DNA from: Carcharhinus amblyrhynchos
Lineage: Eukaryota
DNA: 64,000 bases
Direction: 5' to 3'
NCBI GenBank assembly: GCA_965287045.1
Contig: OZ336873.1
Coordinates: 55,986,001-56,050,000, forward strand
Position numbers: made by a program. Below are positions 30,001-45,000 of the stretch, piece after piece. Numbering within the stretch: position 1 is the stretch's first letter; the number at the start of each line of letters is the position of its first letter.

Positions 30001-33000
30001 TAACTGCTCCCCACCAATGGATAGAGGTGTGCTCAGCCTGAGGGTGGGGATGAAGCCATAGGTCAGGGGAGGAGATGCCCCTTGGGCATTGCTGGCTTGG
30101 TACCCTGGCACTGCCCATTGGGCACAATGCAGTGCCAAGGAGGTGGGGCCAGAGGAGAAGGGACGCACTAGAAAGGTGGGGTGAGTGCTGGTGGTGGGTG
30201 GGAACACTCTTCCACTGTGCAATGGGATTAATGGAGGAGGGATGAGGCAGTGATCGGGGCTGGTCATGGGGGAAGGACCAGGGCTAGCCTTAAGGGTTGG
30301 ACTGGTCGGCTATCAATCGGGGTGGGGGGATCAGGAAGGCCTGTGATTGGGAGAGGCCAGTGCCCATGTACTAATCTCCCCACTGACAGACTGGCACATA
30401 CGCAGTGGTCTGCTGAGCACTTTGCTGCTATACTCTCAGGTGGGAGTAGGCTCCCACCCCTAGTTACAAGCACAAATTTCATTTTGGCACTCTCTTGGAG
30501 AACAGTGGCTGAGATTTTACCGGTTTACTCTGCACATTGATGCCTGGGACGTTGGCAATGCCCATTGAGCACCAAGGGGGTGCAGCCCACGATAAGTGGG
30601 ACATGAAGAAATGGGACCTTTGTGGTAGGCCTTGAGTGGACTGGCCCCATGGTGGACAGAGACTGCGGGGCAGGGCATTTGGTGGTAATATCTGAAGGGA
30701 TGGGGTCTGAAGGGCCATGGGGGCGGGGCCTGAAGGAGACGGGGCCAGTAGGGTGGGGCCTGGAGGGGTGGGGTCAGACTGGGGGCATTTCAGGGAGAAT
30801 GGGGCCCTGCTGTGTACTCTAAAGCTATGACAGTGAAGCCCACTGCTGCTCTGAAGCTGTGATCAGTGGGGGCGGGAAGGAGGGCCGGTGCACAGTCTGC
30901 ATGCGACCAGCGGGAGTGGAATCGGTCTAGGCGGCGAGGCGGGGGCTATATTTTCAGACAGTGTGGGACTTGTCATTGACCTTGGGTCTCTGTGATTGTG
31001 TTAGCGGGTGTGGCGGGTGGTGCTGTGTTGATGCCTATCGCTGTTAGGCCTCTGCTGTTGGAATTGCGTATATGCAGGCAAAGAGATCTGTGCATGCACA
31101 ATAGCTCCCTCTGCTTCCTGATTAGACTGGTTGGTGTGTTCAGTCCTGTCCACAGCCTGTAATAGCTAGAAACAGTCTGGCCCATTTTATGATTCACATT
31201 CAGCATAACATTGGGAGTAAAAACTCGCCCCAAAAATGGATTTGCAACTCTCCTATTTTAACGCTAGTTGGATGGGGTTAGATTGGAATTTTACCGTCCC
31301 ACTGGCCAGGGGAACCAGAAACTGAGTATTGCAGGGGCGAACCATTGGTGTCTGGCAAATTCGGCAACCCAAAAAGAATGCATAAATAGCTGCTTACACC
31401 TCTTCCTGTTGCCACTTGCTTCCCCATAACAAACCTGCTAAACTCGTAGCAGGGAATTGATGGTTGTAGCCTTCTGGAATTTCAAAATCAATATTTTCCA
31501 CCATTTATTGTGCAATTCTCACAAATGCATGAAAGTTTTGTTCTTGAACTCTATAGAAAGACCCTCAGTCTATTGGTATTAGTAATCTTACCTTTCTGCA
31601 GCCTAAGCCTTATTGGACTCAACTAACTGGCACATATTACAACGCCACAGTGAAAACTGCACAGCCCTGAATCACAAGAATATGGACATCAGCCACAATA
31701 CCTGTGCTATCTCATTTTTCCTGTTGGATCTCCAGGATTTGTCTCCAAGCTATGCTCCCTTGGAGTGGCAAGGAATCAATTTCTTCCATTTTACAATGGG
31801 ACTGCCTGTACTGTTTTCTCCCGTTCATTCCATCCCATCTAGTACAGATTTGATACAAACATGTGGGCCCGTATTTCATTTTCCAAGTTAATTTTGAGTA
31901 CCACACTACATTAAATGTAATTGAAAATAATTTATTGGATCAGCCTCTGGTCTATATTTCTGTAGCACTCGGGGCAAATGGGAACAAAGTTATGGGGAAA
32001 AACAGGATTATGCTATTGAGTTGGATGATCAGCCACGATCGTAATGAACGGCGGAGCAGACTCGAAGGACCAAACGGCTTCCTTCTTCTATGTTTCTGTG
32101 TGTCCTAGTGATCTTTCCTCCCTAACAGTAGAACCTGTGTCCCTGGGCAGATTAGCTTGTCTGTCTCTCTAATGGAAATGGGCTACTTTAAAGAATAATT
32201 TTGGAAGCAGCTTCAGTGCGTTTTATGAAGTTTCGGGTGCAGACGCTTTCCTCATCCCTCTCTATCCTGTGACCGAAAAGACCGTGATTCAGATAGTATT
32301 TACAGCGAATGACTGCCGTCGCCTCAGGCAGTCACTCGGTGACAATGGACTTTCAAAGGCAACTGTTAAATTTGTTACACAATGGAAGTTAATAATCATT
32401 TTTTAAAAGTTGAACCGATTGACATTTTCTTGAAGTTCAAGCGACTCCTCGTGAAATTGTATGACACAAACCATGCACGCTGCATTTTAAGAACGATCAC
32501 AAGTTGACATTGCAAAATGTTGATGCCAATTAGTTGCTAATATCACAAGAAGATCATCCTGCACATTTGAAATCCGGAAGATTTTCAACTTGTCGACAAC
32601 CTCAAACTGGTTTTGGAAATCTTGCCTTGGTCACGGAAAGCACCCGATATTGCATTGGTTCTATAACAGTCCAGCGAGCAATTCTGCCAGTTGTGATGTT
32701 CCGGATAGTTAGTTAGCCTGGCTACAATCAATGTAAACAGTAGTGGATGCATTTTAAGGTTTATAATCGAATAGTCTGATCCTGCACTCATAAATATCTT
32801 ACATTCTCAACTCCTTTCTTTCTTTGTCACGTTCACTTCAGCATATAATGCGCGTTTGTTTTGTTTAAGTTTTGATGGGTCCTTGGAATCAGCAAGCTGC
32901 AAGGCGGCATAAGCTAGCTTGTTATCTCCACCTCTTTGTTTAGTCTGTGAAAGTAATATTTAATATCACCGTAAATCCATTGTCCAATCATTATTGAGAC

Positions 33001-42000: not shown

Positions 42001-45000
42001 GTGTGCATGGAAATTACAAATACGGGACCTCAGACGTTCATAGAAATGTTCGATGATATCCACTTTACCGGTAGTGAGTGACTCAGAGAAAGTCTTTTTG
42101 GTGTACCCCAGAGGTACAAACAAGGGCCTTGGGCACCTTAACTGTCCTGCAAGGTCTAGGGCGGAATCCAGCATTGAGGACAAGATCAACATATCCCCTC
42201 TCACTAGTTTGTAGAATCTCGTTGTGGAAAGAGTTCAGAATTTCAACCAAATTATTAACGGACAGAATTGCAAAATACAAACTGCGGATATAGAAACAGG
42301 GGCCCATTCGGCCCCACTAGCTTACTCTGCCATTCCTTTAAATCATGTCTGGTCCATTTGTCCGACTTAGTTCGATTCTCTTGAAACCCACGATTTATTT
42401 CCCTTGATATGCATTGCAAATTTAGTACAACTCGATTATTCGATTGCAATTTTGAACAGGGGCTGACAAGTTACTTTGTGCATGGAATACTCATGACTGT
42501 AAGTAGGCAAGTTTTCGCCTCAATGGATACAAGAGGCACCTTATTGGGACGAATAAAATGGTCATTAATGTTGCAGAAATTAGTTAATTTAGGCGGTGTT
42601 AAAATTATTTCAATCAAAGGTCGTAGATCTGAAACCTTGACTCTGTCCACAGATGTTCAATGACTTGTTTTATGTTTTTATTTCAGGTTCCAAGCATATG
42701 AAACATTTTACTTTTGTACGAAAATTGTCCCCAGTGTCGAACTTTGGCGCCGTTATTTTGGTGAGATGGAATCTGACCACCTCATCCCATCGACTAATCG
42801 CAAACTGAGATTGCAACAGTAATCCCGCTTCATTGTTTTGGCGCAATAATAATTGCAACTTCACACATAGCACACATTGGGTGAAATGTTACGAGGACGA
42901 GAGTGGGTGAAATTGATCTTGAACAGTGGCACAAAGCGGGCGAGAGGGAATCGAGGGAGGGTCGTTCTATAACAAGGTCAAGGGAAAAGAAGTTGTAAGA
43001 TGAATCCATCATTATCAGGTTTTCATCTAGTGATAGAAGTTCAAATTACATAAATCACATATAGCTAAAAATACCCTTTCCCCGGTAGTTTGACACTTAC
43101 CGCACACAGTGAGCTGGGAACCACTTCCATCCCCAATCTTGTTATGTTGATGTTTTACTGAACAGTGATACATTCCGGAGTCTGCAACACTCGCATTCAG
43201 AACTTCAAATGAACTACTGCCCTTCTTTAGATAAATTTTCTTTCTGTTGTCTGGTTCCAGAACAGATTCCTCACCCCGTTTCCACCAAGAAACTTCAGGA
43301 TCGCTTTCAAGCATGGGAAATGTGCAGAACATGGAAACATTGTCACCCCTGGCAACCGTCAAGTGTTTAGGGAACTGATCCACTTTGCTCCAAGTTACTT
43401 TAGCGGCTATAATACAAACAGTAAAGAACGGTGATAACTAGACAGAAAAATAACTTAACAGAGGAAAATAATAAAAAAAAGAGACATCAGCAGTCACATT
43501 GGAGAAGGACAGCATCTATTTTTACAATGCATACAGTTGTAGACGTAAAATACAATTTAAGCTCTTCTAAAACGGCGAAGTAAGAACTCAGGTTACCTAG
43601 CCAAACCAGGCTCAGAAAAGCTATGTACTGAAATGTAACTCTCATCGACATGTTGACAAGTGAACAAAAAATGATATGGCTAATTTCTGTTCAGGAGGAG
43701 ATATCCTGAATGGTTTGGGCAGGAAATTGATTTCTTAGATAAATATATGAAACGGAGAAACCATTACATAGGATATCACATGACCGAATCGGCGCATTGG
43801 TCCCCGTTGTAATTGTGTATGAGAATCTGGAAAGTAGGAGGTCCCTTTCTAACTGCCGGCGAAAGATTTCCATCCGGAGAGCAATGCTGTTTCTGCAACT
43901 CTGAGGCGCGGGCTGTCCTCCAACAACTCATCTGAGGATTAGCTGACGCTTCTCAGTCCTTATATCATTCTAGTAAATCTGTGCTGTATCTATTGAAGTC
44001 CTTTACAACCTTCAGATTTGAACGGAACACTGAGGTTGAGCTCGCGATTTTCTAAAGGTTTAATACAACTTGCTTGCTGTATGCTACATGCCTTGTTTAT
44101 CCTATCACTTTCAAAATATTGTCCATGCGCCCCAGCCCACTACTTTCACTGACATCTCCATCAACTTGGAGATCAATAAAATGTGAGTTATTCTCTCCCT
44201 TTCGTCTTCTCATGGGTTGTGAGGATCGCTTGCAAGGCCAAGAGTGTTGCCCATTCTTAATTGTCCTCTTCAGAAGATTATGGCAAGCCTCAGAGTTCCA
44301 TCTTTCGCTCGGTTAGGAAAAGTGGCACATATTGGTCGTGGGCATAAAAGTGATCTAACACAAGAACTAATTAGGGATACAGTGGTGACAATTATACCAC
44401 TAAAATGTCCTCACAATATTATGGTGACATTGATTGATGAAGAGTAATGCCCATCTGAACTGTCCTCTCTTATTGACTCCTAGTAATTGACCAACTCTTT
44501 ATCACTAAGTGCGGAAGTCCTATTTACACAGCGACTTACAATGAATAACTTCTGAAGGAGCATGGGCCAAACTCTTCTCACAGGCGCAAATGAACGTCGC
44601 AACTATTTGTGATGTTTCCCGCCACTGTTACTGAAATTCTTCGGGGGAAGAACAAAGCTGCATAACAATTTCGATTAGGTTCGGCAGCAGTAGAAGGGAT
44701 AATAATAGACTACAGTTCAATGATTTCCCATGCAACAGTACTTTGGGACTGATGAGATTAAAATACTAAATGTTGGAAACATCAAATTAAATATAAAATA
44801 TTGACCTTAAAATGTGCGTAGAAAAATGAATCACATTACAGTTGGCAGGTCTATTTTGGTGGGTTCATGCTGACTTGATCTTGCGACGTCGCTCCTGTGA
44901 TGCTTAATAACATCAGAACAAATTCGGCCATTTAGCTTTTTCAGCATGTTCTACCATCAGTGAGACAATAGCTGGTCCGAAACCTAACACCTCATACCTG

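What the first reader, a model, noticed from the sequence alone, without database searches (positions are those of the whole stretch)
32807..43651. Intact non-rearranging VJ-C1 inhibitory receptor: antigen-receptor-chain-like ectodomain on a multi-ITIM tail
Seen: a 386-aa gene with one V exon already containing a J-like GxGxxLTV strand, a single true C1-set domain, an uncharged TM and six cytoplasmic tyrosines. Established: C1 domains are largely confined to Ig, TCR, MHC, tapasin, SIRP and a few B7-type proteins, and germline-joined VJ domains (SIRP, NKp30, NITR) are viewed as relatives of the pre-RAG antigen receptor. The V-C1 ectodomain mirrors a TCR or light chain; mammalian SIRPalpha has V-C1-C1. 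Inference: with gene A and the pseudogene, this is a diversified cartilaginous-fish innate/NK-type receptor family that may be uncharacterised.
Basis: partly seen in the sequence, partly recalled or inferred. Interest (0 to 1): 0.88.

Follow-up and report, generated by a model that had tools for sequence, protein, structure and literature searches.

The report
Shark SIRP-like inhibitory immune receptor gene
This is an intact cartilaginous-fish gene for a cell-surface receptor with an antibody-chain-like outer part and an inhibitory signalling tail; it belongs to a large family in sharks, rays and chimaeras, which I could not find described in print and which most resembles the mammalian SIRP receptors.

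Summary
On the minus strand, 43651-32807, eight exons with AG/GT at all seven introns add up to 1161 nt, which is 386 codons plus a stop. They encode:
- a leader;
- one V-like exon that already holds the J-type strand GSGSQLTV;
- one true C1-set exon;
- an uncharged transmembrane helix;
- a tail with six tyrosines in three exon-sized two-tyrosine modules. Only two of the six are strict ITIMs.

The gene is not unique. Its exons are 62-74% identical to predicted proteins of sharks. A family profile found 49 proteins. 48 are named from ten chondrichthyan species, under nine different automatic "-like" names, and one is unnamed. The family has long-tailed uncharged-TM forms and short-tailed forms with a basic TM residue. 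V domains diverge faster than C1 domains.

The best reading is an inhibitory member of a SIRP-like paired-receptor family. Orthology to SIRP is not shown: there is one C1 where SIRP has two, and Ig light chains score slightly higher. None of the ten literature searches found a description of the family.

I rate it a new member of a known kind, of moderate interest. Exons were never joined, so the spliced product was neither searched nor folded.

The parts
43597..43651 (-). Exon 1: ATG and signal peptide (MSMRVTFQYIAFLSLVWL), ends in phase 1
   Evidence: Read and checked (donor GT). tblastn with P0001 residues 1-17 gives 64.7% identity.
43101..43406 (-). Exon 2: V-like Ig domain, 306 nt, phase 1>1. 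Holds Cys27, Trp41, Cys81 and the germline J-type strand GSGSQLTV.
   Evidence: Pfam I-set 3.1e-11 and V-set 4.7e-9. Family HMM E 3.8e-42. 62-73% identical to shark proteins. AG/GT sites.
40262..40558 (-). Exon 3: C1-set Ig domain, 297 nt, phase 1>1. Starts VPPTPLKL and holds AAFYP, W and YTCLASH.
   Evidence: Pfam C1-set 7.6e-8, 33 bits against a cut-off of 21. Best PDB matches are UrIg2, MHC class II beta, MHC class I alpha3 and Ig C domains. Family HMM E 1.1e-43.
38356..38460 (-). Exon 4: short stalk, uncharged transmembrane helix LPLIFGCAGGALAILLLIIIL and the stop-transfer RRLKLK. 105 nt, phase 1>1.
   Evidence: Read. Family HMM E 3.6e-6. AG/GT sites.
37892..37935 (-). Exon 5: 44-nt juxtamembrane exon (GNKNSVEAAQREEQ) that moves the phase from 1 to 0
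   Evidence: Found by tblastn with P0009 residues 210-225, 62.5% identical, E 2.2 on its own. AG/GT sites and phase. Without it, exons 4 and 6 join out of frame.
34265..34375 (-). Exon 6: first two-tyrosine module (AAYATL ... TIYSQ), 111 nt, phase 0>0
   Evidence: Read. Family HMM E 3.7e-7. 60.5% identical to P0009 residues 224-261.
33532..33636 (-). Exon 7: second two-tyrosine module (LAYATV ... IVYSQ), 105 nt, phase 0>0
   Evidence: Read. Family HMM E 1.6e-4. 41.9% identical to P0009 residues 262-292.
32807..32944 (-). Exon 8: third two-tyrosine module (LAYAAL ... ALYAEV) and the stop codon TGA at 32809-32807
   Evidence: Read. Family HMM E 2.6e-11. 71.4% identical to the C-terminus of P0009.
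3241..3289 (-). Neighbouring paralogue 'gene A', exon 1: ATG and leader MSIHVHYMALLGVFWP, 49 nt
   Evidence: Read. Donor GT. tblastn with P0001 residues 1-19.
2750..3055 (-). Gene A, exon 2: intact V-like exon, 306 nt, J-type strand GTGTQLTV. The rest of the gene lies beyond the window's start.
   Evidence: Family HMM E 1.7e-40. 53 of 100 aa identical to the focal V, dN/dS 0.68. AG/GT sites. Best match is S. canicula P0012, 71%.

Best explanation
The locus encodes a type I membrane receptor of a multigene family that has so far been seen only in cartilaginous fish.

Shown from the sequence:
- one V-like domain with a built-in J-type G strand;
- one true C1-set domain on a very short stalk;
- an uncharged transmembrane helix;
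- a tail made of three exon-sized modules, each with two tyrosines 22-23 residues apart.

Inferred mechanism:
1. The membrane-distal V-like domain binds a ligand that is not yet known.
2. Src-family kinases phosphorylate the tail tyrosines.
3. The paired phosphotyrosines dock tandem-SH2 phosphatases of the SHP-1/SHP-2 type.
4. These phosphatases damp ITAM-driven activation in the leukocyte that carries the receptor.

Relatives in the same family have a single basic residue in the TM helix and a short tail. These are inferred to be the activating counterparts, signalling through an acidic-TM ITAM adaptor. The family would then work as a paired inhibitory/activating system like SIRP-alpha/SIRP-beta, KIR or LILR. 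Its V domains diversify while its C1 domains stay similar.
For: Anatomy:
- The eight-exon model is intact.
- Pfam calls both Ig domains; C1-set is the best family for exon 3.
- PDB matches of exon 3 are all C1 domains: UrIg2 9.2e-12, HLA-DO beta 3.8e-8 in one stretch, MHC I, Ig C.

Family:
- 9 of 73 candidates match the V exon at E <= 1e-3, with 62-73% identity. All are sharks.
- The C1 exon finds 445 representatives at E <= 1e-3, 144 of them at <= 1e-10.
- Profile A1 finds 49 proteins at E <= 1e-5 among 7394 candidates. 48 are named from ten chondrichthyan species, including the chimaera Callorhinchus milii.
- Every named H. francisci hit listed (5, 6) sits on a contig of the same length, 99,651,266 bp. 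The same holds within each other species, which points to a cluster on one chromosome.
- In the window, two members lie head to tail about 29.5 kb apart.

Paired design. A crude script sorted 133 stored proteins under 520 aa that score >= 100 bits against the profile:
- 37 have an uncharged TM, a tail of >= 60 aa and an ITIM/ITSM-type motif;
- 22 have K or R in the TM and a tail of <= 60 aa. Examples: P0001 VITRLVLGFLVILGLLGII-VDH, P0180 FCRFLLGLMVILLGTTIIV-DH.
Both kinds occur in both starred major clades of the C1 tree. Inhibitory P0161 groups with Arg-TM P0180/P0183 at 99*.

V diversification:
- V is less conserved than C1 in 76 of 86 within-species pairs (7 the other way, 3 ties).
- Among the pairs with C1 >= 70% identical this holds in 23 of 26 (median V 69%, C1 87%).
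- One example is S. canicula P0001/P0012: V 51%, C1 91%.

SIRP-likeness:
- The profile hits SIRP-alpha 2wng_A fourth of 11794 PDB matches. D1-D2 scores 59.2 bits and D3 46.3 bits, and D3 also starts VPPT.
- The two nearest ESM Atlas clusters of homologue P0029 are 'PTPNS1-like' (0.97) and 'Signal regulatory protein alpha' (0.96).

Two points rest on established knowledge and were not tested here: phosphorylated ITIM pairs recruit SHP-1/2, and a basic TM residue pairs with DAP12, FcR-gamma or CD3-zeta.
Against: - Only two of the six tyrosines fit the strict ITIM pattern. AAYATL and ALYAEV have Ala at -2. TIYSQ|T and IVYSQ|T have Thr at +3 once spliced.
- There is no transcript, protein, cell-type or ligand evidence. 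The homologues are themselves automatic gene predictions.
- The N-terminal domain scores better as I-set than as V-set. SIRP chains are not among the 60 best of 133 PDB matches of the V exon, nor among the 60 best of 1147 matches of the C1 exon.
- Over the V-C1 stretch the family profile scores a lambda light chain (68.5 bits) and a kappa chain (61.7 bits) above SIRP-alpha D1-D2 (59.2 bits). The ectodomain is therefore not specifically SIRP-like.
- LxYAxL...TEYxE[IVL]-type tails also occur in Siglecs and other ITIM receptors (recalled). CD33/Siglec clusters appear at 0.93. The tail therefore does not prove kinship.
- The TM/tail sorting script is crude, and its set of 133 still holds a few multi-C1 proteins that are probably not family members, such as P0063 and P0067.
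Confidence: 0.72

Rival explanations
1. It is simply the cartilaginous-fish SIRP: a true co-orthologue of tetrapod SIRP-alpha/beta that binds a CD47 homologue. On this reading nothing is new except the species.
For: - 13 of the 48 named hits carry the automatic name 'tyrosine-protein phosphatase non-receptor type substrate 1-like'.
- The two top ESM Atlas clusters are SIRP (0.97 and 0.96).
- SIRP-alpha ranks fourth in the profile search of the PDB. Its D3 scores 46.3 bits, the highest single C domain among the four chains whose alignments were printed.
- The design is the same: a VJ-type domain, C1, two-tyrosine modules, and partners with a basic TM residue.
Against: - The focal gene has one C1 exon where SIRP has two. 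The V-C1-C1 models P0008 and P0159 each have two near-identical C1 copies that pair with each other in the tree at 100*. That looks like recent duplication or merged models rather than a D2/D3 pair.
- Light chains outscore SIRP-alpha over V-C1.
- The other 35 named hits carry eight other '-like' names or 'uncharacterized'. This shows that no family is a clear best match.
- Neither the profile search nor a search with the tail alone (5 hits among 32 candidates, all chondrichthyan) brought in any tetrapod or bony-fish protein. That is weak evidence, because both searches need shared five-residue words.
- In print, a 2022 review calls the origin of SIRPs unknown and lists them in mammals, Gallus and Anolis (PMC9652883, passages read). 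A 2026 survey's table dates the SIRP family to Tetrapoda (PMC13262535, passages read).
- Synteny and CD47 binding could not be tested.
Confidence: 0.3
2. It is a surviving relative of the non-rearranging precursor of antigen receptors: a membrane-bound one-V-one-C1 chain akin to UrIg/UrIg2, a TCR chain or a light chain. On this reading it works as a dimer, and the inhibitory tail is a later addition.
For: - The best PDB match of the C1 exon is shark UrIg2 (9dmx_A, 9.2e-12, summed over three C domains).
- The best V-C1 stretch of the profile is a lambda light chain (68.5 bits).
- All of the best 50 Foldseek matches of the P0029 model are Fab chains, nearly all light chains, at 18-23% identity.
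- The J-type strand lies in the V exon.
- An unpaired Cys sits at the V/C1 junction (LTVC|V) in the focal gene.
Against: - The V-like domain is short (Cys-Cys spacing 54 residues) and scores as I-set.
- There is no stalk cysteine and no basic TM residue in the focal gene.
- UrIg2 has V-C1-C2-C3 and is secreted (PMC12227049, passages read).
- Fabs are so numerous in the PDB that they crowd any V-C1 query.
- Global TM-scores are low (0.24-0.30 on the query).
- Kinship this deep cannot be resolved by E-value ranks.
Confidence: 0.1
3. It is a B7-type ligand (B7H6/NCR3LG1, CD276 or PD-L1-like) rather than a receptor.
For: Automatic names: 10 of 48 are 'NCR3LG1-like', 1 is 'CD276 homolog' and 1 is 'PD-L1-like'. 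B7 proteins are also V plus C with a TM helix.
Against: - Pfam CD80-like C2-set_2 scores 16.3 bits, below its cut-off of 21. BTN-type C2-set_3 scores 24.2 bits, below its cut-off of 27. C1-set passes.
- No B7 chain is among the 60 best PDB matches.
- Partners with a basic TM residue and repeated two-tyrosine modules are receptor features.
Confidence: 0.05
4. It is a decaying or unexpressed gene copy whose open frame is a leftover.
For: There is no expression evidence. The locus is full of LINE fragments. dN/dS between the two V exons in the window is fairly high, 0.68.
Against: - All eight exons are open, with seven AG/GT introns and matching phases.
- Every exon matches the family profile.
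- The hallmark residues of both Ig domains are kept.
Confidence: 0.05

Closest known systems
SIRP family (SIRP-alpha / PTPNS1, SIRP-beta, SIRP-gamma)
   Same: - Non-rearranging N-terminal domain with a J-type G strand, followed by a true C1-set domain.
- An inhibitory member with an uncharged TM helix and paired tail tyrosines about 22-24 residues apart (the SIRP spacing is recalled).
- Relatives with a basic TM residue and a short tail.
- The family profile matches SIRP-alpha D1-D2 at 59.2 bits and D3 at 46.3 bits, with a shared VPPT start to the C1 domain.
- The nearest ESM Atlas clusters are SIRP.
   Different: - One C1 domain instead of two.
- Three two-tyrosine modules (six Tyr) instead of two modules (four Tyr, recalled).
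- A shorter V-like domain that scores as I-set.
- Light chains score as high or higher.
- Orthology, synteny and CD47 binding are untested.
- The family was found only in Chondrichthyes. The literature I could read records SIRPs in mammals, Gallus and Anolis (PMC9652883) and dates them to Tetrapoda (PMC13262535).
- I recall that chicken SIRP has a V-C1 ectodomain (Viertlboeck 2006). That paper was not seen.
Ig light chains and TCR chains
   Same: - V, J strand and C1 in the same order.
- Phase-1 Ig exons.
- The best V-C1 profile stretch is a lambda chain (68.5 bits).
- All of the best 50 structural matches are Fab chains, nearly all light chains.
   Different: V and J are in one germline exon with no room for recombination signals. 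The ITIM-type tail, uncharged TM helix and short V-like domain also differ.
Shark UrIg / UrIg2 (non-rearranging VJ-C genes; PMC12227049)
   Same: Elasmobranch, non-rearranging, with a V domain followed by a true C1. UrIg2 is the best PDB match of the C1 exon (9.2e-12).
   Different: UrIg2 is V-C1-C2-C3, secreted and homodimeric (abstract and passages read). This gene has a single C domain, a TM helix and a signalling tail, and belongs to a multigene family that also occurs in a chimaera.
NKp30 (NCR3) and its ligand B7H6 (NCR3LG1)
   Same: NKp30 is a non-rearranging VJ-type receptor with an Arg in the TM helix (recalled). One C. milii isoform of this family that lacks the C1 domain is auto-named 'NCR3-like' (P0197), and 10 of the 48 named hits are 'NCR3LG1-like'.
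   Different: NKp30 has no C1 domain and no ITIM tail. B7-type C domains fall below their Pfam cut-offs here.
Other paired ITIM / basic-TM IgSF families (KIR, LILR, NITR, CD300, Siglec)
   Same: The same operating logic: diversified multigene clusters, inhibitory long-tailed forms and activating short-tailed forms, and lineage-specific expansion.
   Different: Those families use C2, I or V domains without a C1-set domain (recalled). NITRs belong to ray-finned fish (PMC6795676, passages read).

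Membership tests
SIRP family | Membrane-distal V-type domain with a germline J-like G strand | tested here: met
   GSGSQLTV lies inside exon 2, ahead of its donor. V-set is above its cut-off (36.8 bits against 26), but I-set scores higher (43.6 bits).
SIRP family | [quoted passage not shown] | tested here: not met
   Only one C1 exon lies between the V and TM exons. 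The family HMM finds no second one among 1696 ORFs of the window.
SIRP family | Tail tyrosines in ITIM pairs that recruit SHP-1/SHP-2 | tested here: inconclusive
   Six Tyr lie in three pairs 22-23 residues apart, and two fit the strict ITIM pattern. Binding cannot be tested here.
SIRP family | Activating relatives with a basic TM residue and a short tail | tested here: met
   22 of 133 profile-matching proteins have K or R in the TM helix and a tail of <= 60 aa. This holds at family level. It is not shown for gene A, whose 3' part is outside the window.
SIRP family | Sequence closer to SIRP than to other V-C1 proteins | tested here: inconclusive
   Over V-C1, lambda scores 68.5 bits, kappa 61.7 and SIRP-alpha D1-D2 59.2. 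With the C1-only profile, SIRP-alpha scores 78.7 and SIRP-gamma 76.6 bits, below the multi-C Ig chains. The top two ESM Atlas clusters are SIRP.
SIRP family | Orthologous genomic position (SIRP cluster) and CD47 binding | not testable with these tools
   The window holds no other host gene. No annotated chondrichthyan chromosomes were on hand.
Ig C1-set domain | Matches the C1-set model above its cut-off and carries the hallmarks (Cys, FYP, Trp, YxCxxxH) | tested here: met
   C1-set scores 33 bits against a cut-off of 21 and is the best family. C22, F27, P29, W36, Y77, C79 and H83 are invariant in alignment A2. The listed PDB matches are C1 domains.
ITIM-bearing inhibitory receptors | Uncharged TM helix plus at least one cytoplasmic [SIVL]xYxx[IVL] motif | tested here: met
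   The TM helix is LPLIFGCAGGALAILLLIIIL. The motifs are LAYATV and LAYAAL.
ITIM-bearing inhibitory receptors | Phosphorylation-dependent recruitment of SH2 phosphatases and inhibition of activation | not testable with these tools
   This needs biochemistry.
Rearranging antigen-receptor chains (IgL, TCR) | [quoted passage not shown] | tested here: not met
   The V framework and the J-type strand are contiguous in one exon (43406-43101).
B7 family / B7H6 (NCR3LG1) | B7-type constant domain (CD80-like C2-set_2 or BTN-like) | tested here: not met
   C2-set_2 scores 16.3 bits against a cut-off of 21. C2-set_3 scores 24.2 bits against a cut-off of 27.
UrIg / UrIg2 | Secreted V-C1-C2-C3 chain | tested here: not met
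   The gene has one C exon followed by TM and tail exons. The UrIg2 architecture is taken from PDB entry 9dmx and PMC12227049.
Tapasin-related proteins | N-terminal tapasin-type domain ahead of the Ig C1 domain | tested here: not met
   Pfam finds only Ig-type families in exons 2 and 3 and nothing in the other five pieces.

The most novel reading that the evidence does not exclude
This family, found across Chondrichthyes, is the sister or co-orthologue of tetrapod SIRPs. On that reading SIRP-type paired receptors with a true C1 domain date back to the ancestor of jawed vertebrates. Sharks would then keep the minimal membrane-bound layout of one VJ domain, one C1 domain and a TM helix, the layout expected of the stock from which both SIRPs and rearranging antigen-receptor chains arose. 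This gene would be a cell-surface counterpart to the secreted UrIg/UrIg2.
Probability: 0.3. Interest if true: 0.75.

Novelty: new member of a known kind. Interest (0 to 1): 0.5.

Why it matters
True C1-set domains are rare outside Ig, TCR, MHC and a few relatives. Non-rearranging VJ-C1 genes are actively sought as clues to how antigen receptors began; UrIg2 was reported in 2025 (PMC12227049).

A 2022 review states that the evolutionary origin of SIRPs is unknown (PMC9652883). A 2026 survey dates the SIRP family to tetrapods (PMC13262535).

This family is clustered and diversifying, has both inhibitory and activating-type forms, and occurs in sharks, rays and a chimaera. That makes two questions directly testable by synteny and domain trees:
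- Are SIRP-type receptors as old as jawed vertebrates?
- Are they linked to the MHC or antigen-receptor paralogous regions?

The family would also give cartilaginous fish a candidate innate paired-receptor system, which the reviews I could read do not list for them. In addition, current automatic annotation scatters one family over nine unrelated names.

The mechanism itself is conventional, and relatives are already predicted in public genomes, so this is a useful but not startling find.

Tried and rejected
1. Homodimer test. Two copies of residues 21-226 of homologue P0029 gave a score of 0.00, and the tool returned no verdict. It counts neither for nor against dimerisation.
I took names from the search for homologous proteins instead.
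3. A scripting error. My first TM/tail script returned 'noTM' for nearly every protein, because I took the end of the whole-protein HMM match as the end of C1. Its output is void. replace it.
4. PDB ranking. Ranking PDB hits with the whole-family profile and with a C1-only profile did not separate SIRP from Ig, UrIg or MHC. Chains with several C1 domains sum their scores.
5. Structure comparison. Foldseek with the AF2 model of P0029 (mean pLDDT 69.3; most ectodomain blocks above 80, tail below 40) returned only Fab chains in the best 50. That fits a V-C1 chain, but Fabs swamp the library.
6. Tail-only search. P0116 residues 258-368 found 5 hits among 32 candidates, all chondrichthyan. No bony-vertebrate tail relative appeared. 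This is weak evidence, because the search needs shared five-residue words.
7. Beyond the focal gene and gene A, the best match in the window is a J-like GNGTGSTILV at 17526-17720(-), with E 0.13. That is not significant. blastn with the V and C1 exons found no third copy.
8. An alternative exon. tblastn with P0001 found no alternative Arg-TM exon inside the focal gene.
9. The automatic names. Tapasin-related, MHC class I/II-like, Ig lambda-like, TCR beta-like, CD276 and PD-L1-like were rejected as family assignments. They reflect only the shared Ig domains.
10. Literature. One further attempt failed on a term that was too short. None turned up a description of the family.
   - Not held, so unseen: Dornburg and Yoder 2022, Ohta et al. 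2019, Flajnik et al. 2023 (UrIg), Flajnik and Kasahara 2010, and Flajnik 2018. Viertlboeck 2006 was never requested.
The supplement of the elephant-shark genome paper may list such genes. Its main text has no mention of SIRP, ITIM or NITR.
11. Steps left out. The joined spliced protein was never built, searched or folded. The exons were used one at a time, and database homologues stood in for the whole protein.

Full report
WHAT IS THERE

The window has no N, and I do not take it for human. Its coding matches are 62-74% identical to shark proteins, and the rest is LINE-type debris.

On the minus strand, stop-to-stop frames and base-by-base reading give eight exons:
- 43651-43597: ATG and leader
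- 43406-43101: V-like domain
- 40558-40262: C1 domain
- 38460-38356: stalk and TM helix
- 37935-37892: 44-nt juxtamembrane exon
- 34375-34265, 33636-33532 and 32944-32807: three tail exons, the last ending in TGA

A script confirmed AG before exons 2-8, GT after exons 1-7, consistent phases, and 1161 nt, which is 386 codons plus a stop.

I first missed exon 5: exons 4 and 6 do not join in frame without it. tblastn with the Heterodontus homologue P0009 pointed to it (10 of 16 residues identical, E 2.2 alone). Its splice sites and its 1>0 phase fit.

The spliced protein was neither searched nor folded. Every search used one exon or a database homologue.

THE DOMAINS

Exon 2 passes several Pfam Ig models: I-set 43.6 bits, ig, Ig_3, and V-set 36.8 bits. 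It has Cys27, Trp41, the YHC motif with Cys81, and then GDGSGSQLTV. GSGSQLTV is a GxG[ST]xLxV J-type strand inside the same exon, so the gene cannot rearrange. With only 54 residues between its cysteines and I-set as its best model, the domain is a short V/I-type domain rather than a full V domain.

Exon 3 is a true C1 domain:
- C1-set is its best Pfam family (33 bits against a cut-off of 21). The B7-type and BTN-type C models fall below their cut-offs.
- Its PDB matches are shark UrIg2, MHC class II beta, MHC class I alpha3 and Ig C domains (1147 matches at E <= 0.01).

The TM helix is uncharged.

The tail has six tyrosines. Each of exons 6, 7 and 8 is a phase 0>0 module with two tyrosines 22-23 residues apart. 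Only LAYATV and LAYAAL meet the strict ITIM pattern. The other four are near-misses: Ala at -2, or Thr at +3 across the splice junction.

THE FAMILY

The V exon finds nine shark proteins at 62-73% identity among 73 candidates. The C1 exon, scored against 1.84 billion representatives, finds 445 at E <= 1e-3 and 144 at <= 1e-10.

A profile of 17 members (A1) finds 49 proteins at E <= 1e-5 among 7394 candidates. 48 carry names from ten species: four sharks, five rays and the chimaera Callorhinchus milii. One has no name.

Their automatic names show that no curated family claims them:

| Automatic name | Count |
|---|---|
| PTPNS1 (SIRP-alpha)-like | 13 |
| NCR3LG1-like | 10 |
| Ig lambda-like | 5 |
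| tapasin-related-like | 4 |
| TCR beta-like | 2 |
| MHC class II-like | 2 |
| MHC class I-like | 2 |
| CD276 homolog | 1 |
| PD-L1-like | 1 |
| uncharacterized | 8 |

Within each species, all listed members sit on a contig of one and the same length. For H. francisci that is 11 proteins on a contig of 99,651,266 bp. In the window a second member, gene A, lies about 29.5 kb downstream in the same orientation. Its leader and V exon are intact, and the rest runs off the window.

A quick maximum-likelihood tree of 56 named C1 domains has two starred major clades (99* each). The focal gene lies in the clade with the other shark and ray members, and the chimaera sequences lie in the other. Within the clades the branches are mostly species-specific. 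The focal C1 falls in no small starred group, so there is no one-to-one orthologue among the named proteins. Unnamed rows were left out of that tree.

HOW THE FAMILY IS BUILT

A crude hydropathy and motif script sorted 133 stored proteins under 520 aa that score >= 100 bits against the profile. That set still holds a few multi-C1 proteins that are probably outsiders, such as P0063 and P0067. The result (examples):
- 37: uncharged TM helix, tail of >= 60 aa and an ITIM/ITSM-type motif
- 22: K or R in the TM helix and a tail of <= 60 aa
- 23: uncharged TM helix and a short tail (many look truncated)
- 33: no TM helix (fragments or secreted forms)
- 18: other

The short-tailed forms have one Arg in the outer third of the helix, often followed by VDH. 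They occur in both major clades, sometimes next to a long-tailed paralogue: inhibitory P0161 groups with P0180/P0183 at 99*. This is the signature of paired inhibitory/activating receptors.

V domains change faster than C1 domains. V is the less conserved domain in 76 of 86 within-species pairs, against 7 the other way and 3 ties. Among close pairs (C1 >= 70% identical) this holds in 23 of 26. In the window the two V exons share 53 of 100 residues, with dN/dS 0.68.

MECHANISM

Shown: the anatomy above.

Inferred from what is established for ITIM receptors:
- The distal domain binds a ligand.
- The tail tyrosines are phosphorylated and recruit tandem-SH2 phosphatases, which damp activation.
- The Arg-TM relatives signal through an ITAM adaptor.

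Nothing here shows expression, cell type or ligand.

COMPARISON WITH KNOWN FAMILIES

The family works like SIRP-alpha/beta. The similarities are real:
- SIRP-alpha ranks fourth of 11794 PDB matches of the profile. D1-D2 scores 59.2 bits and D3 46.3 bits, with a shared VPPT start.
- The two nearest ESM Atlas clusters of P0029 are SIRP (0.97 and 0.96).

Membership is not established:
- There is one C1 domain where SIRP has two.
- Lambda (68.5 bits) and kappa (61.7 bits) light chains outscore SIRP-alpha over V-C1.
- A C1-only profile does not single out SIRP.
- SIRP is absent from the 60 best single-exon matches.
- Neither the profile search nor a tail-only search reached any bony-vertebrate protein.
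- Synteny could not be examined.

The light-chain likeness is also real. All of the best 50 Foldseek matches of the AF2 model of P0029 are Fab chains, nearly all light chains. But it is generic, because Fabs swamp the library.

The homodimer job gave no verdict and is not used.

LITERATURE

None of the ten searches found a description of a chondrichthyan SIRP-like VJ-C1 family. What I read:
- PMC12227049 (UrIg2; abstract and passages). It mentions no SIRP or ITIM gene.
- PMC10751288 (passages). It notes that VJ-C1-type genes are known in tetrapods.
- PMC9652883 (passages). [quoted passage not shown]
- PMC13262535 (passages). Its table assigns the SIRP family to Tetrapoda.
- PMC6795676 and PMC3964593 (passages). 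Neither mentions such a family.

Several key papers and all supplements were not available. The family may be mentioned there.

VERDICT

I rate it a new member of a known kind (SIRP-like paired IgSF receptors). It has value for the open questions of where SIRPs and VJ-C1 receptors came from, but its mechanism is conventional and its relatives already exist as unnamed predictions. Interest: 0.5.

Noticed in passing
window 2750-3289 (-): A second family member (gene A) has an intact leader and V exon, and its remaining exons lie beyond the window's start. Its V is only 53% identical to the focal V. Its closest match (71%) is S. canicula P0012, a short-tailed form with Arg in the TM helix, so gene A might be an activating partner.
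   Followed up: partly
window 17526-17720 (-): A short open frame holds a J-like GNGTGSTILV. It is the best remaining match to the family profile, but at E 0.13 it is not significant.
   Followed up: partly
window 43101-43103 (-), last full codon of exon 2: A cysteine sits at the V/C1 junction (LTVC|V), where most relatives have Y, F or H. The same Cys occurs in P0008, P0114 and P0141. It is unpaired within the domain pattern and could form an interchain bond.
   Followed up: no
window 57090-58967 (-): A 625-aa open frame carries a reverse-transcriptase domain (RVT_1, 7.2e-32), a largely intact LINE ORF2. Related fragments are scattered over the window, including the focal gene's intron 5 at 36235-36669. 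Other examples lie at 8010-9188, 11166-11678, 13510-13932, 21105-22039, 22715-23107 and 48277-49614.
   Followed up: partly
window about 24000-25200 and 28000-30900, both strands: These are G+C-richer stretches (0.47-0.50 against about 0.41 elsewhere) with long proline-rich open frames on both strands. They look like low-complexity or repeat sequence and were not identified.
   Followed up: no
protein P0197 (Callorhinchus milii), found: This 266-aa model is auto-named 'NCR3-like'. It carries the family's tail but no C1 domain in its Pfam list, so it is a V-TM-tail form of the family, or a splice variant.
   Followed up: no
proteins P0008, P0013, P0159: These V-C1-C1 models have two near-identical C1 domains. 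The two copies in P0008, and those in P0159, pair with each other at 100* in the tree. They come either from recent exon duplication or from gene models that merge neighbouring genes.
   Followed up: partly
window about 54430-54720: A (TG/CA)n microsatellite shows up as CVCVCVCV and THTHTHTH open frames.
   Followed up: no
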